NCBI GenBank assembly: GCA_048882385.1
Contig: JBHLRQ010000019.1
Coordinates: 1-40,783, forward strand
Direction of reading: 5' to 3'
DNA: 40,783 bases
Origin: Candidatus Thorarchaeota archaeon
GTDB lineage: Archaea; Asgardarchaeota; Thorarchaeia; Thorarchaeales; Thorarchaeaceae
Shown: positions 2,180-7,164 of the stretch, piece after piece
Layout: every line of letters begins with the position of its first letter
Position numbering within the stretch: position 1 is the first letter of the stretch
Translations under genes and position numbers: made by a program
The notes under the pieces: model-generated
Told to the model about the DNA's origin: nothing
Database searches by the model: none
Seen by the model: the letters and a program-made list of their open reading frames with translations, nothing else

Positions 2180-3709
2180 CTATTCTTCTAGATGAATTCC
2201 TTCAGCAATTTCCGCTCCACCTGCTGGAGTTTCAATCTCAGCATCAAGTTCAGACTCTTTTGGAGGAGCTGTGACATCACCAATCGCCAATGTTTCTTCA
2301 TCAAGTGCGGGAGGTTCATGTCTGAATCCATGGATTATGAGGAGGACACCTGTAAAGGATGTGACTCCGCATGCTGCTAGAGTAAGTGGGAAACCAATCA
2401 CCGTGATCAGCCACCCAAACAGAGCGATCTGTGGAATCGCAAATAGTGTTGCAAGGGTCGGGAAAAGGGAGTACATAGAATTCCTAATCCTGTTTGGTAT
2501 AGCATCTATCAACACTCTCTGAGTCAAAATCTCAGCAAAGCCTCCAAAGAAACTAGTTGAAACAAATGTTGTGAAGATTAGCGCTATAGGAACAATATTC
2601 TCTACAGGGAGAGTAAGAAGCGCAATATTCGACAAAGGCCAGTAGAGTGTCAGTAAACTAGTGCTCTCTGCAGCAGGGGGAAATATCAGCATGATAGCAG
2701 CGAACACCCAGAAGAAGATGAAGCCACAGGTTTGCATCAGACGAAATCGGGGTATCCACTTCTTTGGCTCGAATCTACGAGACCATACTCCTGATCGCTC
2801 CTGTGAGAAGATACCAGGAATGAAGAGCAATGTTCTGAAACTCGCAACTCCAACATCTGTGATCAAGTAGAGATAATACATAGGGAACAGAATGAGATTA
2901 CCCCAGACCATGATACTACTAACTGCAAGCATTGTTCCTACTGCGATGTAACGTACAAAGGCATGTTTGAAGAGATAGGTGACTCCGCCTTTTAGAATGG
3001 AAACGTACTCACCCATATCAGGGCGTCCACCTTCCTGCATCCTCTGCTCTTCGACCTCAGGGAAATCACGTACAAGTCTGAAAACTGCCATGGCAAACAC
3101 GAAGGCCAAGATTCCTTGCAATTGAAACACCCAAGGTCTCGAGAATATTACTGCTAAGATACTTCCAGGAATCAAAGAGGCAGTCGACACAATCTGCATG
3201 ATCATACCCATTCTTCCCCAGAAGACTCCATACTGCTTCCTGTCAGTATCTCCTGGCATTGCAACACGATAATTGTTGTCGAACCATGCACCCCAGGCTC
3301 CACTCGCTTGTGATTGAGCAAAGCCCATCAGTGCATATACGCCTACTAGATAGATAAAAGGAGTATCAACGGTGACAAAGGAGATTAGAAGGAATGCCAC
3401 GCCAAACGAAATTTGTGCACCCGCAATTATGTATCGCTGACCAATCCAGTCACCAACCGCACCTGTTGGATAGTCGAGTAGTATTTGAACAACCATCTGT
3501 ACAACGACAAGAGTTCCAACAAGTCCCATTCCTTGGAGATACATTCCAGGACCACCACCAAGAGCCTCTGCAACGAATATCACCCAAAATGTAGTTGATA
3601 ACGTAAAAATGACATTAGCGAGTGGTCCCAAAATCCCCATTATTTTTGCAAGTCTTATGACCTTGTCAGTAGCATCTGGCAAGCCCAGAAAGGATTTCAT
3701 TCTGCTCAT
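2180..3709 (-). CDS. MFS transporter
   Basis: About 12 hydrophobic segments; motif-A-like DYPTGAVGDWIGQR; 'IPNRIRNSMYSL' in the C-terminal half; GAGG upstream. Confidence 0.85.
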   Translation of the reverse strand: MSRMKSFLGLPDATDKVIRLAKIMGILGPLANVIFTLSTTFWVIFVAEALGGGPGMYLQGMGLVGTLVVVQMVVQILLDYPTGAVGDWIGQRYIIAGAQISFGVAFLLISFVTVDTPFIYLVGVYALMGFAQSQASGAWGAWFDNNYRVAMPGDTDRKQYGVFWGRMGMIMQIVSTASLIPGSILAVIFSRPWVFQLQGILAFVFAMAVFRLVRDFPEVEEQRMQEGGRPDMGEYVSILKGGVTYLFKHAFVRYIAVGTMLAVSSIMVWGNLILFPMYYLYLITDVGVASFRTLLFIPGIFSQERSGVWSRRFEPKKWIPRFRLMQTCGFIFFWVFAAIMLIFPPAAESTSLLTLYWPLSNIALLTLPVENIVPIALIFTTFVSTSFFGGFAEILTQRVLIDAIPNRIRNSMYSLFPTLATLFAIPQIALFGWLITVIGFPLTLAACGVTSFTGVLLIIHGFRHEPPALDEETLAIGDVTAPPKESELDAEIETPAGGAEIAEGIHLEE

Positions 3710-3759
3710 TTCAGCTTCCTCATTTTGTTAATAGGTCAATGTTTGTTTCGTAGTAGGAT

Positions 3760-3795
3760 GCAGCGGTCCCCGGATCACACTTCGGGGACCACTGC
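3760..3795 (-). promoter_or_regulatory. GC-rich hairpin between small ORF and MFS gene
   Basis: GCAGUGGUCCCCG pairs with CGGGGACCGCUGC (13 bp, one G-U) on the minus strand. Confidence 0.6.
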
Positions 3796-3844
3796 GGAGA
3801 TAGGAGATTTGTCCGGTTAACTATAATGTGAAAGCATCATTGCT

Positions 3845-3964
3845 CTATCGGGGCAAAGTGTGACCAGCATTGCATAATGCTCCGAAAGATTGAACCCTGA
3901 TCGACCTGTTCTCAACTGTCAAGCAGGGCTTGTCCATTGATTGGGTCGTTAGGATTGTCATCAT
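3845..3964 (-). CDS. Small peptide, array member 4 (39 aa; 38 aa from second ATG)
   Basis: MMTILTTQSMDKPCLTVENRSIRVQSFGALCNAGHTLPR*. GGTGA RBS; LTTQS and ALCNAGHTLPR align with member 1 (LTTNS, ALTYAYKTIIR). Confidence 0.6.
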   Translation of the reverse strand: MMTILTTQSMDKPCLTVENRSIRVQSFGALCNAGHTLPR

Positions 3965-4012
3965 CTTTCACCACGCCATTTTCTTTTATCGCACACTTTT
4001 ATAGTTTGTGTG

Positions 4013-4046
4013 TCAAACCATTATTTATTTATGGTTTGATATAAGC
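4013..4046 (-). promoter_or_regulatory. TATA box with adjacent palindromic operator
   Basis: Minus strand reads CTTATA followed directly by TCAAACCAT-N9-ATGGTTTGA, with perfect 9-bp arms at 4013-4021 and 4031-4039. Confidence 0.6.
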
Positions 4047-4138
4047 ATTTTCCTCACAGCAATATTTTGTTTGTTGTACTTAAATTCCGTAATTTGTTGA
4101 TAATATAAACCAAATTCAGAATGAAGTACTGATTTCAT
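4025..4138 (-). CDS. Possible small ORF (37 aa), not of the peptide family
   Basis: MKSVLHSEFGLYYQQITEFKYNKQNIAVRKMLISNHK*. Has an AGGAG RBS, but is AT-rich and overlaps the promoter. Confidence 0.25.
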   Translation of the reverse strand: MKSVLHSEFGLYYQQITEFKYNKQNIAVRKMLISNHK

Positions 4139-4143
4139 GATGT

Positions 4144-4218
4144 CTATCTCCTAAAGTAAGCATCAGCGATTGCTCGAGTTGAGATCTTTCGATTGTGTTT
4201 TAGGTTAGTAATTGCCAA
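4144..4218 (-). CDS. Small peptide, array member 3 (24 aa)
   Basis: TTG start after AGGAGGT; MAITNLKHNRKISTRAIADAYFRR*. Confidence 0.65.
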   Translation of the reverse strand: MAITNLKHNRKISTRAIADAYFRR

Positions 4219-4223
4219 GCTTC

Positions 4224-4328
4224 TTACCTCCTGTAAGTATAAGCATGAGTTAGAGCACAAGTTCGCAAACCGTTACGAGTGCGATTGTTCTTGATCATCG
4301 ACCAGTTATTATTCCTTGATAGTGCCAT
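4224..4328 (-). CDS. Small peptide, array member 2 (34 aa)
   Basis: MALSRNNNWSMIKNNRTRNGLRTCALTHAYTYRR*. Start context TTGTGAAATATC-ATGGC is shared with member 1. Confidence 0.7.
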   Translation of the reverse strand: MALSRNNNWSMIKNNRTRNGLRTCALTHAYTYRR

Positions 4329-4344
4329 GATATTTCACAACCGT

Positions 4345-4473
4345 CTATAGGTTGGTCACATGATATGCCATTTCTGAGACTATCTGACCACTCTTATGAC
4401 CACTGAGTGACCAGCCATCACAAACCTCTGCCGAAGATGAAATCCAACAGACTAGTTTCTCAGAGTAGCTCAC
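4345..4473 (-). CDS. Possible small ORF (42 aa) between array members 1 and 2
   Basis: AGGTGA then GTG; MSYSEKLVCWISSSAEVCDGWSLSGHKSGQIVSEMAYHVTNL*. Fills the gap almost exactly. Confidence 0.4.
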   Translation of the reverse strand: MSYSEKLVCWISSSAEVCDGWSLSGHKSGQIVSEMAYHVTNL

Positions 4474-4478
4474 ATCAA

Positions 4479-4583
4479 TCACCTTATGATTGTCTTATAC
4501 GCATAGGTCAGAGCCTCTGTGGAAACCTTTGCATTCTTGTAATTCTGGAGAGATTTTCTTTGTGAGTTAGTTGTTAGAGCCAT
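4479..4583 (-). CDS. Small peptide, array member 1 (34 aa)
   Basis: MALTTNSQRKSLQNYKNAKVSTEALTYAYKTIIR*. Context TTGTGAAACATT-ATGGC; TATA-like TATATATA about 35 nt upstream. Confidence 0.7.
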   Translation of the reverse strand: MALTTNSQRKSLQNYKNAKVSTEALTYAYKTIIR

Positions 4584-4615
4584 AATGTTTCACAAGAAAT
4601 ACTGCTCACTTTTAG

Positions 4616-4623
4616 TATATATA
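4616..4623 (-). promoter_or_regulatory. TATA-like box for peptide array
   Basis: TATATATA about 33-40 nt upstream of ATG 4583. Confidence 0.4.
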
Positions 4624-4742
4624 GCGAAGCCACTTGTTAGGGTCACAAAATGAAGTCACATATTGTTACTATTATGTCAACACAGACAAGCATATCAAGG
4701 ACATAGATAGAGCCCTAGATAGCCTCCGGAATGTGATAAAAC

Positions 4743-5369
4743 ATGTCCGATGACAATCAAATTCAACAGCTGATTGATTACTTCTCGTTATTTACAGAAA
4801 AAGAACTCACGAATCAATTTGGAAATAAAGGCACTTCAATGCATAAATTGTTCAAGAGGCAATTCAAAATCCACTACAACAATTACGAACACATGATGCC
4901 GGATGATTTGTCAAAGCGACATGGGATCAACTCGATTTTTGTTATGGCTCTAGATGATGTGATGTGTGAAGTTAGAGCATCATTCACTGAACTCAAGAAT
5001 ACCGTACTGTCAATTTATCGAGCGATGTTGAATGATTATTTCACAATTGAAACTCAGAAACTTAAGCAAAGTCAAAATCCTTGGAAAGAATTTGTGGATT
5101 GGATAAAGAAAAATAACCAAGCGAACTACGCCAATGATTACTTCCAAGTCATTGAAGTCGAGCAGGAGGCGGGTTGCTACGGATTTGACATAAGGAGATG
5201 TCTGTACTTCGACATCCTAAGAGAATCTGGAAAGCCTGAACTTGGACCAATACTTTGTGAATATGACAATATCCTAGCAGATTTCGTAAAGAGTTGGATA
5301 GGATTCACTCGGTACGAAACCATTGCCACTGGGGACAAACGCTGTGATTTTAGATATTGCAAAGCGTAG
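4743..5369 (+). CDS. L-2-amino-thiazoline-4-carboxylic acid hydrolase (ATC hydrolase)-family protein
   Basis: C-terminal signature FDIRRCLY..PELGPILCEYD..TIATGDKRCDFRY. Confidence 0.8.
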   Translation: MSDDNQIQQLIDYFSLFTEKELTNQFGNKGTSMHKLFKRQFKIHYNNYEHMMPDDLSKRHGINSIFVMALDDVMCEVRASFTELKNTVLSIYRAMLNDYFTIETQKLKQSQNPWKEFVDWIKKNNQANYANDYFQVIEVEQEAGCYGFDIRRCLYFDILRESGKPELGPILCEYDNILADFVKSWIGFTRYETIATGDKRCDFRYCKA

Positions 5370-5376
5370 GTAGAAA

Positions 5377-7029
5377 TCAGACTCTTCTTCTTCTCACAAA
5401 TACTGCAATGACCATAATCAGTCCGGCAGAAACAGGTATTAAGACAGCCAAAATCAACGGATCTATTTGAAAGCCTTGCGGGTTTCCAGAGCCGTCCAAA
5501 GTTGTAACATAGACATTCATCTCAGTGGGGTCCATAGTCACTTGAAATCCAGCATCATCCAGAACGCTTCTGGATCTATTCAAGTAGTTATGAAATGATT
5601 CGTCCATTGCGTCCGTACCGTAATACTGCTCACTCAGAGGGGCGTAGTCTGGATCGAGCGAGGAGTACTCTGTATATCCAAGATACTCAGCTGTGGGGAT
5701 AAGAACATTCTTTGATGCCCAATAGTCCAGCGCTACGGGGTCCTGACTTAATCCGACGATATCAGTGAAGCTCGCAGCAGAATAGGTGGTCGATGGTCCT
5801 CTCTGAGAGGAGCTTTCTAAGGGATGTGCATTCACCCAAATCATGTCAAGAATATTGAGAATGGGCATTCGTGTTTCAGCCATCAAAGTTCCCATACCGC
5901 CCAAGGCAATTGAGAAGTGTTCGTGGGGTATATTCCCATCTAGCGCTTCAACTCCTTGGGGGACACCCATGTAGTGTTTTATGCAACCAGTCACGCCATA
6001 ACGGAAATGTGATTTCAATACAGGCATGTTTATGATTTTCAATCTGTCCGAATCAAAACCCGTTGTGTTATCCCATACGCCGTTCTTGAAGCTGACATAA
6101 AGACCTGTATCAGTAACAAATTTCGGATATGATGTATAAATCTCTGTTTCGGAATTCCAACTGCTGCTTCTAACGTATCCTTCAGTGAAATCGCCAAGAT
6201 CATAATCGTCAACAGTATTGTATCTCAATGTATCCCAGAGAATTGTCGATATATCATAGTCTGGAAATTGTCGCGCTACATCCTCCATTGCTTGGCTGTT
6301 ATTGAAAGCGTTTGCATAGTACGGATTCAAGTTACCAAGACCTTGTCCATTGTCCGCAATGATTAACTCCCCAGAGAATCCATCAGGATGGTTGGTTATT
6401 GCCCAGATTATTGCCTTGACGAGATCAGTGTTAGTACCTCCTCTAAAAGCCCATTGACCGTTCACTTTGAGAAGGACAACATCATCGTGTTCTATGAGGC
6501 CACTAGGGTCTGATGTTGTATTGTAGAATTGCAACCCTTCATCCGCCATCATTTCAAGCAAAGCAATGATAGCACTTGTAACATTTCCTTCATCATCTGA
6601 AACTCCTTGTGCAATGAATAGATCAGATGTATGTTCAGTAGCTTGTGCGATACTCCCCTGAAGCTGAAGAGGAACACGATTATAATCGGAGTAATCCTGT
6701 GCAAATACAAAGCCAAGAGCCTGCATTCCTTCACTACTTGTAATGAAAACAGAGCCTACTAAAAGTACTGCTAGGATTCCGACAGGTTTCAAAGGTTTGA
6801 AGGTTAACCGAATTGATGCAAGAGAGGGTATAGACGCTAAGAGTGCGAGTTTGAAGACCTCAATATTGGTCAATGCGGCTTGTTGACACGGATAGTGAAT
6901 ACGCGAGGGTTTCTCACCAGTTCGCAAAAGAATCCAGATTGCACTGCCTATAGCAAGAAGGCCAAGAGTCCAAAGACGTTTACTAGATTTCTTTGAATTA
7001 CAGGATTGTGATTGGCCATCGTGAGGCAT
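5377..7029 (-). CDS. DUF362 domain protein, membrane anchored
   Basis: DVVLLKVN, TNTDLVKAI, IINMPVLKSH..GVTGCIKHYMG, SQDPVALD; N-terminal KPSRIHYPCQQAA; C-terminal TM plus RRRR. GGAG precedes ATG 7029. Confidence 0.8.
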   Translation of the reverse strand: MPHDGQSQSCNSKKSSKRLWTLGLLAIGSAIWILLRTGEKPSRIHYPCQQAALTNIEVFKLALLASIPSLASIRLTFKPLKPVGILAVLLVGSVFITSSEGMQALGFVFAQDYSDYNRVPLQLQGSIAQATEHTSDLFIAQGVSDDEGNVTSAIIALLEMMADEGLQFYNTTSDPSGLIEHDDVVLLKVNGQWAFRGGTNTDLVKAIIWAITNHPDGFSGELIIADNGQGLGNLNPYYANAFNNSQAMEDVARQFPDYDISTILWDTLRYNTVDDYDLGDFTEGYVRSSSWNSETEIYTSYPKFVTDTGLYVSFKNGVWDNTTGFDSDRLKIINMPVLKSHFRYGVTGCIKHYMGVPQGVEALDGNIPHEHFSIALGGMGTLMAETRMPILNILDMIWVNAHPLESSSQRGPSTTYSAASFTDIVGLSQDPVALDYWASKNVLIPTAEYLGYTEYSSLDPDYAPLSEQYYGTDAMDESFHNYLNRSRSVLDDAGFQVTMDPTEMNVYVTTLDGSGNPQGFQIDPLILAVLIPVSAGLIMVIAVFVRRRRV

Positions 7030-7164
7030 ATTCTGCAACTCCAATGGAAAATGAAGATACAGGATGTAAGTAATAATGGTGATGCTCTCAGCATTAGTTT
7101 GGATAGTCAAACATATTTGGTAGAAGTCATGAGCCCAACCTAGGTTCTTTCACAAAACGGAAGG

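What the first reader, a model, noticed from the sequence alone, without database searches (positions are those of the whole stretch)
3845..4583. Hidden array of paralogous micro-peptides upstream of an MFS transporter
Seen: the 1-kb gap, empty in the ORF track, is tiled on the minus strand by tiny ORFs. Four are related: MALTTNSQRKSLQNYKNAKVSTEALTYAYKTIIR (4583-4479), MALSRNNNWSMIKNNRTRNGLRTCALTHAYTYRR (4328-4224), MAITNLKHNRKISTRAIADAYFRR (4218-4144) and the more diverged (M)MTILTTQSMDKPCLTVENRSIRVQSFGALCNAGHTLPR (3964-3845). All have A-[LI]-x-x-A and end in Arg; the first three also start MA[LI] and share T-x-A-[LI]-x-x-A-Y. Conserved residues use different synonymous codons (Thr ACA/ACT, Ala GCT/GCA/GCG, Leu CTG/CTA/TTA, Tyr TAT/TAC), as expected from protein-level selection. 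Three share the start context GTGAAAnATn-ATG. Inference: a diversified family of basic peptides (exported signals or antimicrobials, regulators of the transporter, or leader peptides) co-oriented with an MFS gene. No RiPP-modifying enzyme is adjacent, and I recognise no described family.
Basis: partly seen in the sequence, partly recalled or inferred. Interest (0 to 1): 0.88.

Follow-up and report, generated by a model that had tools for sequence, protein, structure and literature searches.

The report
Conserved micro-peptide array before a transporter
The apparently empty 1-kb gap holds a conserved string of tiny genes, most of them for about 30-residue basic peptides found in many copies in one archaeal family, and their function is still unknown.

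Summary
All four ORFs exist at the stated coordinates.

- **Family membership.** pep1, pep2 and pep3 belong to an unannotated family of about 22-37-aa basic peptides (MA[LIF], basic middle, S-T-x-A-[LIV]-x-x-A-Y-x-[YF]-R-R-stop). pep4 is not a member. It is a separate conserved ORF that also shows a coding signature.
- **Distribution.** The family has 9 copies in this genome. It occurs in 56 of 59 genomes and all 16 genera of the same taxonomic family. It was found in 0 of 124 genomes of 26 other families of the phylum.
- **Coding evidence.** Conserved residues use all synonymous codons. NG86 pN/pS is 0.38-0.54 in frame against 0.87-2.17 in shifted frames.
- **Coupling.** The terminal AGG-AGG-stop doubles as the Shine-Dalgarno site of the next ORF.
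- **Array conservation.** The whole six-ORF array is conserved in order in 11 species. Two interleaved ORFs are constrained at nucleotide level and look like promoter/operator DNA. A covarying RNA hairpin precedes the MFS gene.
- **Related loci.** Elsewhere a family member is followed in frame, across a conserved TAG, by a third peptide. Natural Gln-codon fusions of the two exist.

No Pfam, NCBIfam or Rfam match was found. Function is unresolved; I favour trans-acting micro-proteins over arrest-type leader peptides.

The parts
4616..4669 (-). Promoter P1. It has an inverted-repeat operator GT[CA]AC-N5-GTGAC (4669-4655), then TGTGACCCT..AGTGGCT and a TATATATA box (4647-4616). This is about 32 nt before the pep1 ATG.
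   Evidence: The pattern scan of the own genome found 4 copies of the TGTGACCCT..TATATATA block, on C2, C19, C20 and C50. It found 4 copies of the operator, on C2, C6, C19 and C20. In 22 related loci the half-sites are conserved and the 5-nt spacer varies. Promoter and operator function is inferred, not shown.
4479..4583 (-). pep1 (pepA type), 34 aa plus stop. It is a member of the MAL..ST.AL..AY..R family.
   Evidence: ORF; HMM E = 9.8e-16. Orthologues in 11 of 11 species. pN/pS 0.54 in frame against 0.90 and 1.12 in shifted frames.
4345..4482 (-). ORF45 / element 1. It is an open frame of 41-45 codons. Its 3' half (about 4416-4350) carries TGGTCA three times, then TGTGACCA and CTATAG. I read this as probable internal promoter/operator DNA for pep2-pep3, possibly also translated.
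   Evidence: The frame is open in 10 of 11 orthologues, while the shifted frames hold 38 and 27 stops. pN/pS is 0.89, against 1.00 and 0.79 shifted, with pS only 0.32, so the constraint is at nucleotide level. A DNA copy without an intact frame lies on C50 before a GNAT gene. RNAalifold found no covariation.
4224..4328 (-). pep2 (pepA' type), 34 aa plus stop; family member. It ends in AGG AGG TAA, which serves as the Shine-Dalgarno site for pep3.
   Evidence: HMM E = 3.4e-16. Orthologues in 11 of 11 species. pN/pS 0.54 against 0.95 and 0.87 shifted.
4144..4218 (-). pep3, 24 aa with a TTG start; a short family member (..STRAIADAYFRR). It ends in AGG AGA TAG, which serves as the Shine-Dalgarno site for the next ORF.
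   Evidence: HMM E = 1.2e-7. A regex found it in 9 of 11 orthologues. The start at the homologous place is ATG or TTG. pN/pS 0.42 against 2.17 and 0.93 shifted. A 151-nt metatranscriptome contig covers 4110-4260, which is only a weak hint of transcription.
4025..4138 (-). ORF37 / element 2. It is an A/T-rich open frame that carries TTTATAT and the palindrome CAAACCA-N11-TGGTTTG (4014-4038). I read this as probable promoter/operator DNA for pep4-MFS.
   Evidence: It is conserved in 7 of 11 orthologues by regex. pN/pS is 0.73, against 0.59 and 0.78 shifted, with pS 0.27, so there is no coding signature. The palindrome occurs once in the genome. No covariation.
3845..3964 (-). pep4, 39 aa plus stop. 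It belongs to a second, Cys-containing mini-ORF family and not to the MAL family.
   Evidence: Present in 10 of 11 orthologues. pN/pS 0.38 against 1.06 and 1.59 shifted. It is not an HMM hit. Similar ORFs (MMT..LT.EN..I.VQS..) lie in L029-L031 before pepB and the MFS_3-like gene.
3760..3795 (-). Conserved RNA hairpin in the leader of the MFS gene. It has a 13-bp stem and a loop holding an invariant GTGTGAT. The conserved stretch CTCCTATCTCC comes just before it.
   Evidence: Inverted repeat I1. RNAalifold on 9 orthologues gave -29.3 kcal/mol. 5 of the 13 stem pairs show changes on both sides that keep the pair, and G-U pairs fit only this strand. It occurs once in the genome. No Rfam match.
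2180..3709 (-). MFS transporter gene, 509 aa. It is the last cistron behind the array.
   Evidence: Pfam MFS_1, E = 3.2e-16. Orthologues follow the array in 11 species.
4743..5369 (+). Divergently transcribed 208-aa gene (ATC_hydrolase family). It bounds the gap and is not part of the array.
   Evidence: Pfam PF14196, E = 2.5e-19.

Best explanation
**What is there.** The gap is a conserved, densely coded leader region of an MFS operon. It reads, in order:
- promoter P1 with a palindromic operator;
- pep1;
- an operator-like block that is also an open frame (ORF45);
- pep2 and pep3, coupled to each other;
- a second promoter-like block (ORF37);
- pep4;
- a structured RNA hairpin;
- the MFS gene.

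**Shown.**
- pep1, pep2 and pep3 are members of a lineage-wide, multi-copy family of about 22-37-residue basic peptides.
- pep4 is a second family.
- The last codons of each family member (AGG AGG/AGA + stop) form the Shine-Dalgarno site of the next cistron, 4-9 nt away.

**Inferred from the coding signature.** All four ORFs are translated.

**Inferred.** Each downstream start is served by ribosomes that have just finished the peptide (termination-reinitiation coupling). This would give fixed stoichiometry.

**Inferred, moderate confidence.** The peptides are functional micro-proteins that act in trans.
- The conserved S-T-x-A-[LIV]-x-x-A-Y segment forms a short helix with a small-xxx-small packing face.
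- In sister loci it works together with a third, acidic peptide (pepC).
- pepC is joined to it either by a conserved in-frame TAG or, in some lineages, by a Gln codon in one 70-aa protein.

**Inferred regulon.** The array is co-regulated, through the shared operator, with two MFS transporters, a GNAT acetyltransferase and a membrane protein. I read this as an efflux or detoxification-type regulon.
For: **Real family.**
- Regex: 6 of 6 hits.
- HMM: 9 hits, then a gap to E = 0.94.
- 24 of 24 genomes of the genus, with 3-14 matches each and open frames of 31-42 aa.
- 56 of 59 genomes and 16 of 16 genera of the taxonomic family.
- 0 of 124 genomes of 26 other families of the phylum.
- 65 representatives among 1.84 billion predicted proteins, mostly 29-36 aa and full-length.

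**Coding.**
- In 63 distinct gene sequences the invariant Thr uses ACC 28, ACT 25, ACA 9, ACG 1. The Ala uses GCT 36, GCC 12, GCG 8, GCA 7. The Ser uses six codons.
- pN/pS in frame against shifted frames: pepA 0.54 vs 0.90/1.12; pepA' 0.54 vs 0.95/0.87; pep3 0.42 vs 2.17/0.93; pep4 0.38 vs 1.06/1.59; pepB 0.44 vs 1.09/1.48.
- ATG and TTG interchange at the pep3 start.

**Coupling.**
- The final sense codon is AGG in nearly all of the 63 sequences.
- Shine-Dalgarno-like pentamers precede 477 of 1907 long ORFs (25%), against 4.9% at a control offset.

**Trans-acting product.**
- 7 of the first 60 representatives are natural pepB-pepC fusions with Gln at the stop position.
- Of the 50 best full-length pepB-pepC matches across the taxonomic family, 47 have exactly one in-frame TAG, 2 one TAA, 1 TAG plus TAA, and none lacks a stop. 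Genome-wide TAG usage is 615 of 1876, or 33%. pepA stops are TAA 18, TGA 4, TAG 0.
- 13 of 32 loci end with pepC and have no large gene downstream; 4 hold a single peptide.
- AF2 predicts a helix over the conserved motif, with pLDDT about 82 for those blocks.

**Array conservation.** The order is conserved in 11 species.

**Regulon.** The operator or promoter lies before genes on C2, C6, C19, C20 and C50.
Against: - There is no direct evidence of translation, and no raw-read transcription data. One 151-nt metatranscriptome contig on 4110-4260 is only a hint.
- pN/pS of 0.4-0.55 is weak purifying selection. The middle of the peptides is free to vary.
- The first 8 codons of pepA are conserved at synonymous sites too. 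That points to an RNA- or DNA-level role for that part.
- The peptides sit at the 5' end of operons in most loci. The C-terminal dozen residues up to the stop are the best conserved part. Both are expected of cis-acting arrest peptides.
- The AF2 model of the fusion has pTM 0.28 and shows no contact between the two helices.
- No structural or sequence relative gives a function.
- The promoter and operator assignments rest on sequence pattern alone.
Confidence: 0.5

Rival explanations
1. The peptides are cis-acting regulatory leader peptides, that is, nascent-chain arrest or sensor peptides like TnaC and SpeFL. The conserved C-terminal residues would act inside the ribosomal tunnel at or near the stop codon. 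Stalling or efficient termination would then set how much of the next cistron (MFS, pepC) is translated or transcribed. In archaea this could act through termination-reinitiation, or through polarity on untranslated RNA.
For: - The ORFs are short (22-37 codons) and come first behind a regulated promoter. They lie in the leader of two unrelated MFS genes.
- Conservation is strongest over the last 12 or so residues up to the stop.
- The downstream Shine-Dalgarno site lies inside the last codons, so a terminating or stalled ribosome sits on it.
- A conserved, covarying hairpin lies between pep4 and the MFS gene.
- SpeFL is a 34-aa leader ORF before a decarboxylase-antiporter operon. It stalls at its stop codon, and all three stop codons occur across species (passages of 10.1101/604074).
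Against: - 13 of 32 loci end in a small ORF with no regulated large gene, and 4 hold a lone peptide.
- In several lineages the stop after pepB is replaced by a Gln codon, so the motif becomes internal.
- The distance between the conserved N-terminus and the C-terminal motif varies; family members run from 22 to 37 aa.
- The N-terminal MA[LIF] is conserved at protein level with varied codons. That is unusual for arrest peptides.
- I found no alternative RNA structure that overlaps a peptide ORF or hides a start site. RNAalifold on 5 type I leaders gave only invariant pairs for the one long-range helix.
- Strong operator conservation suggests that control is at least partly transcriptional.
Confidence: 0.3
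2. The peptides are exported: leaderless multi-peptide antimicrobials ('archaeocins') or signals. The adjacent MFS would serve as exporter or immunity pump.
For: - Tandem genes encode two to four cationic peptides of about 30 aa with an A-x-x-x-A helix-packing motif, next to an MFS_3 ('transmembrane secretion effector') gene in 9 of 32 loci.
- There are many diversified copies per genome.
- The resemblance to two-peptide and leaderless multi-peptide bacteriocins is recalled from my own knowledge and comes from no call.
Against: - The distribution is core-like (56 of 59 genomes), and orthologues are syntenic across 11 species. Bacteriocins are usually patchy.
- The peptides are hydrophilic (N/S/T/K/R-rich) with no amphipathic or hydrophobic stretch long enough for membrane action (sequences).
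- Most loci (19 of 32) have no transporter directly behind the peptides.
- No maturation or immunity gene was recognised among the neighbours tested.
Confidence: 0.1
3. The small ORFs are not translated. The conservation would reflect only DNA operators and promoters, or a structured non-coding RNA.
For: - Promoter P1 and the first 8 codons of pepA are conserved at every position, synonymous sites included.
- ORF45 and ORF37 show no coding signature.
- There is a covarying hairpin.
- There are no expression data apart from one contig.
Against: - pN/pS is specifically low in frame for pepA, pepA', pep3, pep4 and pepB.
- Invariant residues are encoded by all four codons across 63 genes.
- The profile matches begin at ATG and fill open frames of 31-42 codons in 24 of 24 genomes.
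- Indels come in multiples of three.
- No Rfam family matches.
Confidence: 0.07

Closest known systems
Metabolite-sensing arrest leader peptides of bacteria (SpeFL before speF-potE; TnaC before tnaAB)
   Same: - Both are short basic ORFs (SpeFL is 34 aa) that come first in the leader of an operon including a membrane transporter.
- Conservation runs up to the stop codon.
- The stop-codon identity is free in SpeFL (passages of 10.1101/604074), as it is in pepA (TAA or TGA).
   Different: - This case is archaeal.
- Several paralogous copies lie in tandem, and there are 3-14 copies per genome.
- The next start codon lies 4-9 nt after the stop, inside the ribosome's footprint. There is no Rho site or pause hairpin over the ORF end.
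- Many loci have no regulated large gene.
- Natural in-frame fusions to a second peptide exist.
- Stalling has not been tested.
Leader peptides before inducible resistance or efflux genes in bacteria (erm, cat/cmlA, tet(L), msr/mef type)
   Same: Both are an upstream mini-ORF translationally linked to an efflux or resistance gene. The regulon here also holds a GNAT acetyltransferase and two MFS pumps. This comparison is largely recalled; only search listings and abstracts were seen.
   Different: - Those leaders work through an mRNA hairpin that hides the downstream start. No such conserved hairpin over a start site was found here.
- Those peptides are not multi-copy protein families with conserved N-termini.
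Two-peptide and leaderless multi-peptide bacteriocins (recalled, no call)
   Same: Both have tandem, co-transcribed genes for several cationic peptides of about 30-45 aa with small-xxx-small helix motifs, with an exporter gene nearby.
   Different: - The composition here is hydrophilic.
- The distribution is core-like and syntenic.
- There is no ABC exporter or immunity gene.
- Most loci have no transporter.
Split or readthrough genes with an in-frame stop (programmed stop-codon readthrough)
   Same: - The pepB|pepC junction keeps the frame.
- TAG is present in 47 of the 50 best matches, against 33% TAG genome-wide.
- Gln-codon fusions occur in other lineages.
   Different: - pepC keeps its own ATG two codons after the stop, with a Shine-Dalgarno site in front. 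Reinitiation therefore explains its synthesis without readthrough.
- No PylS and no tRNA with anticodon CUA were found.
- Readthrough has not been measured.
- This junction is not in the window itself.

Membership tests
Any curated protein family (Pfam-A, NCBIfam) | Profile match at or above the curated cut-off | tested here: not met
   9 mini-ORF products were scanned at E <= 10. Pfam gave 0 families. NCBIfam gave one chance-level hit (listolys_S, 11.7 bits against a cut-off of 33).
Any curated RNA family (Rfam 15) | Covariance-model match at the gathering score | tested here: not met
   0 matches in the whole window at gathering threshold. For 3650-4800 only E >= 0.21 hits far below their cut-offs were found.
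Arrest or attenuator leader peptides (TnaC/SpeFL type) | Short ORF in the 5' leader of the regulated operon | tested here: inconclusive
   Met in the window array and in 9 type I loci. Not met in 13 loci that end with pepC, nor in the single-peptide loci, whose downstream genes vary.
Arrest or attenuator leader peptides (TnaC/SpeFL type) | Protein-level conservation concentrated at the C-terminus next to the stall site | tested here: met
   S-T-x-A-[LIV]-x-x-A-Y-x-[YF]-R-R is conserved with varied codons. The N-terminal MA[LIF] is conserved as well.
Arrest or attenuator leader peptides (TnaC/SpeFL type) | RNA element (terminator/antiterminator, rut site or start-site hairpin) whose state depends on the ribosome's position on the leader ORF | tested here: not met
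   No covarying structure overlaps a peptide ORF or a start site. The one covarying hairpin (3760-3795) lies between pep4 and the MFS start and overlaps neither.
Arrest or attenuator leader peptides (TnaC/SpeFL type) | Ribosome stalling on the peptide, ligand-dependent or not | not testable with these tools
   This needs toeprinting or ribosome profiling.
Multi-peptide bacteriocin-like loci | Tandem genes for small cationic peptides | tested here: met
   Two to three family members lie in tandem in most loci.
Multi-peptide bacteriocin-like loci | Amphiphilic or hydrophobic, membrane-active peptide composition | tested here: not met
   The sequences are rich in N, S, T, K and R and have no hydrophobic stretch. 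This was judged by inspection only.
Multi-peptide bacteriocin-like loci | Accessory, patchy distribution with dedicated export and immunity genes | tested here: not met
   56 of 59 genomes of the taxonomic family carry it. Orthologues are syntenic in 11 species. 19 of 32 loci have no transporter directly behind the peptides.
RiPP precursor peptides | Adjacent maturation enzyme (radical SAM, YcaO, LanM and the like) | tested here: not met
   The neighbours tested are MFS_1, ATC_hydrolase, DUF362, F420 ligase and zinc-ribbon proteins. Only the window and four sister loci were looked at.
Programmed stop-codon readthrough (pepB-pepC junction, sister loci) | Conserved in-frame stop between two conserved coding modules | tested here: met
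   47 of the 50 best full-length matches have one TAG, and none lacks a stop. 10 of 13 loci are in frame with one stop.
Programmed stop-codon readthrough (pepB-pepC junction, sister loci) | The downstream module depends on readthrough (no start of its own) | tested here: not met
   pepC keeps an ATG (or GTG/TTG) zero to two codons after the stop, even in 6 of 7 fused forms.

The most novel reading that the evidence does not exclude
One whole family of Asgard-type archaea carries a previously undescribed translational control system. In it, arrays of paralogous micro-cistrons have conserved nascent or mature peptides that gate the expression of efflux pumps. They do so by termination-reinitiation at Shine-Dalgarno sites embedded in their last codons. 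A conserved leaky TAG makes both a short peptide and a 70-aa two-module protein from one message. This would be the first peptide-based attenuation or recoding system described in archaea.
Probability: 0.2. Interest if true: 0.85.

Novelty: new variant of a known kind. Interest (0 to 1): 0.7.

Why it matters
- **A hidden gene family.** Small ORFs are mostly invisible in archaeal annotation. Here a 1-kb 'intergenic' region turns out to hold four ORFs with a coding signature, two operator-like blocks and a structured RNA, conserved across species. The main peptide family is present in almost every genome of a whole archaeal family (3-14 copies in each of 24 genus genomes) yet matches no curated family.
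- **An entry point to archaeal gene control.** It offers a concrete system for translational coupling, possible nascent-peptide control and possible TAG readthrough in Asgard-type archaea, where almost nothing is known about post-transcriptional regulation.
- **A testable regulon.** The operator GTCAC-N5-GTGAC links two MFS pumps, an acetyltransferase and a membrane protein.
- **Annotation.** The family should be added to gene-calling models for these genomes.

Tried and rejected
- **pep4 as a fourth paralogue: rejected.** It is not an HMM hit even at E <= 100 and belongs to a different conserved family.
- **ORF45 and ORF37 as ordinary coding genes: rejected.** They show no frame-specific constraint. 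I could not show that they are untranslated, because their frames stay open.
- **RNA structure for elements 1 and 2.** RNAalifold gave only weak, invariant helices: -7.4 and -2.8 kcal/mol with no compensatory support.
- **Type I leaders.** RNAalifold on 5 of the 9 type I leaders proposed a long-range helix between the pepA 5' leader and the pepB end. All its pairs are invariant, so it is not evidence.
- **Rfam: nothing**.
- **tRNA genes in the window: none**.
- **Pyrrolysine as the meaning of the conserved TAG.** No PylS match was found in a 95%-complete genome. ARAGORN, run without intron mode, found only 22 tRNAs in all and none with anticodon CUA. I set pyrrolysine aside rather than excluding it.
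- **ESM Atlas on a fused 70-aa form: no usable hit**.
- **AlphaFold2 of the fused form.** It gave two helices, pLDDT 68.5 and pTM 0.28. That is too weak for a fold search, so none was run.
- **Complex prediction, pepA with pepB, each as an alignment.** The verdict was 'no answer' (score 0.02, mark 0.32). This is neither for nor against binding.
- **Metatranscriptome run X20.** Apart from the two contigs on 4110-4260 it showed no cover on 3400-5000. A part without cover proves nothing.
- **A DNA contig of run X4** joins 3933 to 4300 with 18 mismatches. It probably comes from another species and was not followed.
- **Literature.**
  - Three full-text searches found no description of this family (Asgard / small proteins / small ORF; archaea / leader peptide / ribosome stalling / upstream ORF / efflux; Thorarchaeota / small peptides / micropeptide / sORF / small proteins). 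I saw only listings and abstract starts.
- **Taxonomy.** I did not establish it beyond a profilin match. 'Asgard' and any family name remain inference.
Full report
**1. The observation**

The gap 3710-4742 lies between two divergent genes. One is an MFS_1 transporter (2180-3709, minus strand). The other is an ATC_hydrolase-family gene (4743-5369, plus strand).

So are two more, a 45-codon ORF (4482-4345) and a 37-codon ORF (4138-4025). Every one is preceded at 5-9 nt by a Shine-Dalgarno-like string. For pep3 and ORF37 that string is formed by the last codons of the ORF in front: TAC AGG AGG TAA before pep3, and TTT AGG AGA TAG before ORF37. The window holds no tRNA gene and no Rfam match.

**2. 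Is it more than chance?**

- A strict regular expression for the C-terminal motif was run over all six frames of the organism's 3.70-Mb assembly. It found 6 places, and all 6 are mini-ORFs that start MA[LI] directly after a stop. Three of them are in this gap.
- A profile built from 7 such peptides was run against 139,870 stop-to-stop segments of the genome. It found 9 members at E <= 4.4e-5, and the next hit was at E = 0.94. The members are three in the window (C19), two on C2, one on C20, two in tandem on C31 and one on C23.
- pep4 is absent from that list even at E <= 100. The claim of four relatives is therefore reduced to three.

**3. How widely the family occurs**

| Search | Result |
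|---|---|
| Genus | 24 of 24 genomes, 3-14 matches each, full-length, open frames of 31-42 codons, no internal stop |
| Taxonomic family, 52-peptide profile | 56 of 59 further genomes; all 16 genera |
| Second family of the same order | 0 of 1 genome |
| Rest of the phylum | 0 of 124 genomes from 26 other families |
| Same family, in the phylum sample | 23 of 26 genomes |
| 1.84 billion protein representatives | 65 sequences at E <= 0.001, most 29-36 aa and full-length |

Gene callers have therefore called these ORFs in metagenomes. The two names I could see were 'hypothetical protein'.

Pfam and NCBIfam have no model for any of the mini-ORF products. Three literature searches found no description (listings only, supplements closed).

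I did not establish the taxonomy further.

**4. Coding or not**

- In 63 distinct gene sequences of the family, the conserved residues are spelled with all available codons:
  - Thr: ACC 28, ACT 25, ACA 9, ACG 1.
  - Ala: GCT 36, GCC 12, GCG 8, GCA 7.
  - Ser: six codons.
  - Tyr: TAC 44, TAT 13.
  - The search pattern required the Thr and Ala, so their invariance in this set is by construction. The HMM-based alignment also shows them invariant.
- For 11 orthologous arrays I compared Nei-Gojobori pN/pS in the real frame with the two shifted frames of the same columns:

| ORF | pN/pS in frame | Shifted frames |
|---|---|---|
| pepA | 0.54 | 0.90, 1.12 |
| pepA' | 0.54 | 0.95, 0.87 |
| pep3 | 0.42 | 2.17, 0.93 |
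| pep4 | 0.38 | 1.06, 1.59 |
| pepB of sister loci | 0.44 | 1.09, 1.48 |
| ORF45 | 0.89 | 1.00, 0.79 |
| ORF37 | 0.73 | 0.59, 0.78 |

- ORF45 and ORF37 have low synonymous divergence (pS 0.32 and 0.27). They are constrained base by base, not codon by codon.
- These are crude pairwise figures on related sequences, not a tree-based test.
- Two nucleotide-level constraints also lie inside the family genes:
  - The first eight codons of pepA are nearly invariant at synonymous sites.
  - The last sense codon is almost always AGG.

**5. Anatomy of the gap**

*Promoter P1.* Upstream of pep1 lies an inverted repeat GT[CA]AC-N5-GTGAC. It is followed by TGTGACCCT..AGTGGCT..GCTATATATA. In 22 loci from many species the half-sites are kept while the 5-nt spacer varies.

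- The promoter block occurs 4 times in this genome:
  - C2 and C19, before peptide arrays that lead into MFS genes;
  - C20, before a peptide-only array;
  - C50, before a GNAT gene.
- The operator occurs 4 times, on C2, C19 and C20 and also on C6 before a 363-aa membrane protein.

*Element 1.* The 3' half of ORF45 carries three direct TGGTCA repeats, an inverted TGTGACCA and CTATAG, about 21 nt before the pep2 ATG.

*Element 2.* ORF37 carries TTTATAT and the palindrome CAAACCA-N11-TGGTTTG.

I read both blocks as internal promoter/operator DNA. That is inference from pattern alone. RNAalifold gave no covariation for either.

*Hairpin.* Between pep4 and the MFS start lies a 13-bp hairpin (3760-3795). 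It is kept by changes on both sides at 5 of its 13 pairs in 9 species. Its G-U pairs fit only the sense strand. It occurs once in the genome.

*Order across species.* pepA, ORF45, pepA', pep3, ORF37, pep4, hairpin, MFS is conserved in 11 species of the genus. By regex, presence is pepA 11/11, ORF45 10/11, pepA' 11/11, pep3 9/11, ORF37 7/11 and pep4 10/11.

**6. Sister loci**

Among 32 related loci:

- **9 loci:** pepA-pepB, then after 5 nt a 440-446-aa MFS. Pfam gave MFS_1/MFS_3 for the one tested, L002. It has no significant BLASTP similarity to the window's MFS. Four of these loci have ORF45-like inserts, and three of those also have pep4-like inserts.
- **13 loci:** pepA-pepB-pepC. pepC is a 35-43-aa acidic peptide ending ..EVLxxE[AV]T. 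In the loci I looked at closely, a T-run (L003, L005) or a convergent gene (L003, L011) follows it.
- **1 locus:** the orthologue of the window.
- **4 loci:** a single peptide.
- **5 loci:** cut by contig ends, or other arrangements.

*The pepB|pepC junction.*

- In 10 of the 13 pepC loci, pepC is in frame with pepB across one stop (TAG 8, TAA 1, TGA 1). One more locus is in frame with two stops, and two are out of frame.
- Seven of the first 60 database representatives are single proteins of 69-90 aa (most about 70) in which that stop is a Gln codon.
- A profile of the fused form was run over 86 genomes of the taxonomic family. Of the 50 best matches that span the whole profile, 47 hold exactly one TAG, 2 one TAA and 1 TAG plus TAA. 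None is without a stop.
- TAG ends 33% of 1876 long ORFs in this genome. It ends 0 of 22 pepA genes.
- No PylS was found, and no tRNA with anticodon CUA.
- pepC keeps its own start codon, so reinitiation can make it. The conserved frame, the preference for TAG and the natural Gln fusions leave readthrough open.

**7. What it most likely is**

*Shown:*
- A conserved, lineage-specific array of mini-ORFs, four with coding signatures.
- Shine-Dalgarno sites embedded in the stop regions.
- A shared operator-like motif before several genes.
- A structured leader hairpin.

*Inferred:*
- The cistrons are translationally coupled.
- The peptides are functional products.
- The fusions and the in-frame junction suggest that pepB and pepC work together as parts of one protein. 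This speaks for a trans-acting micro-protein rather than a purely cis-acting leader.
- AF2 puts a helix on the conserved motif, whose A-x-x-x-A spacing gives a small-residue face. The model is of low overall confidence.

*Main rival:* nascent-chain arrest peptides like SpeFL or TnaC. Position, length and C-terminal conservation fit this reading. Peptide-only loci, internal motifs in the fusions, variable length and the lack of a ribosome-dependent RNA switch speak against it.

*Weaker rivals:* an exported antimicrobial or signal peptide, and non-translation. Section 4 and the core-like distribution count against both.

I give about 0.9 to 'really translated family', 0.5 to the trans-acting reading and 0.3 to the arrest-peptide reading.

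**8. Expression**

One sediment metatranscriptome holds a 151-nt contig (2 mismatches) on 4110-4260. This covers the pep2 end, pep3 and the ORF37 start. A second short piece is from a relative. Contigs cannot show strand, ends or level, and DNA carry-over is possible, so this is a hint only.

In DNA metagenomes the depth rises about tenfold over 4588-4695, as expected for a multi-copy promoter cassette shared by several strains.

**9. Verdict**

One of the four peptides was mis-assigned, and the terminal Arg-Arg is mostly a ribosome-binding site. The kind of thing (small ORFs, leader cistrons) is known. This family is not described in the places I could search, and neither is its tandem coupled architecture in an archaeon or the conserved in-frame TAG junction in its sister loci.

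Noticed in passing
window 3760-3795 (minus strand): A 13-bp hairpin with an invariant GTGTGAT in the loop lies in the MFS leader. It is kept by compensatory changes in 9 species and has no Rfam match. It could be a protein-binding or processing element in its own right.
   Followed up: partly
sister loci, e.g. L005 2482-2694 (own contig C31:18384-18593), L003 1700-1933: The pepB and pepC mini-ORFs are in frame across a single stop. That stop is TAG in 47 of the 50 best matches across the taxonomic family, and a Gln codon in several metagenomic lineages. This may be programmed readthrough or a recurrent split and fusion.
   Followed up: partly
own genome C2:74733-74786, C6:18882-18909, C19 (window) 4616-4669, C20:26300-26353, C50:3620-3651: A shared operator/promoter cassette (GTCAC-N5-GTGAC, TGTGACCCT..TATATATA) lies before two MFS genes, a peptide-only operon, a 363-aa membrane protein and a 459-aa GNAT protein. 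It is a candidate regulon of an unknown regulator.
   Followed up: partly
L004 about 1540-1640 (own contig C50): A DNA copy of the 3' half of ORF45 (TGGTCA repeats plus TGTGACCA) lies between the promoter and a GNAT gene. Its frame is broken by a TGA. This supports a DNA- or RNA-level role for that block.
   Followed up: partly
own genome C31:20249-20584 (minus strand): A profilin-family ORF (PF00235, 25.4 bits against a cut-off of 25) lies about 1.5 kb from the C31 peptide array.
   Followed up: no
own genome C4:5427-5517: ARAGORN calls a tRNA-Sec (anticodon TCA), so the organism may use selenocysteine.
   Followed up: no
window 5377-7110 and L003 1970-2806: DUF362-domain genes lie next to both the window array and the C20 array. 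This may be chance.
   Followed up: no
window 3933/4300: One DNA contig of run X4 (18 mismatches over 115 nt) joins 3933 to 4300 and skips 366 nt. It is probably a related species with a shorter array.
   Followed up: no
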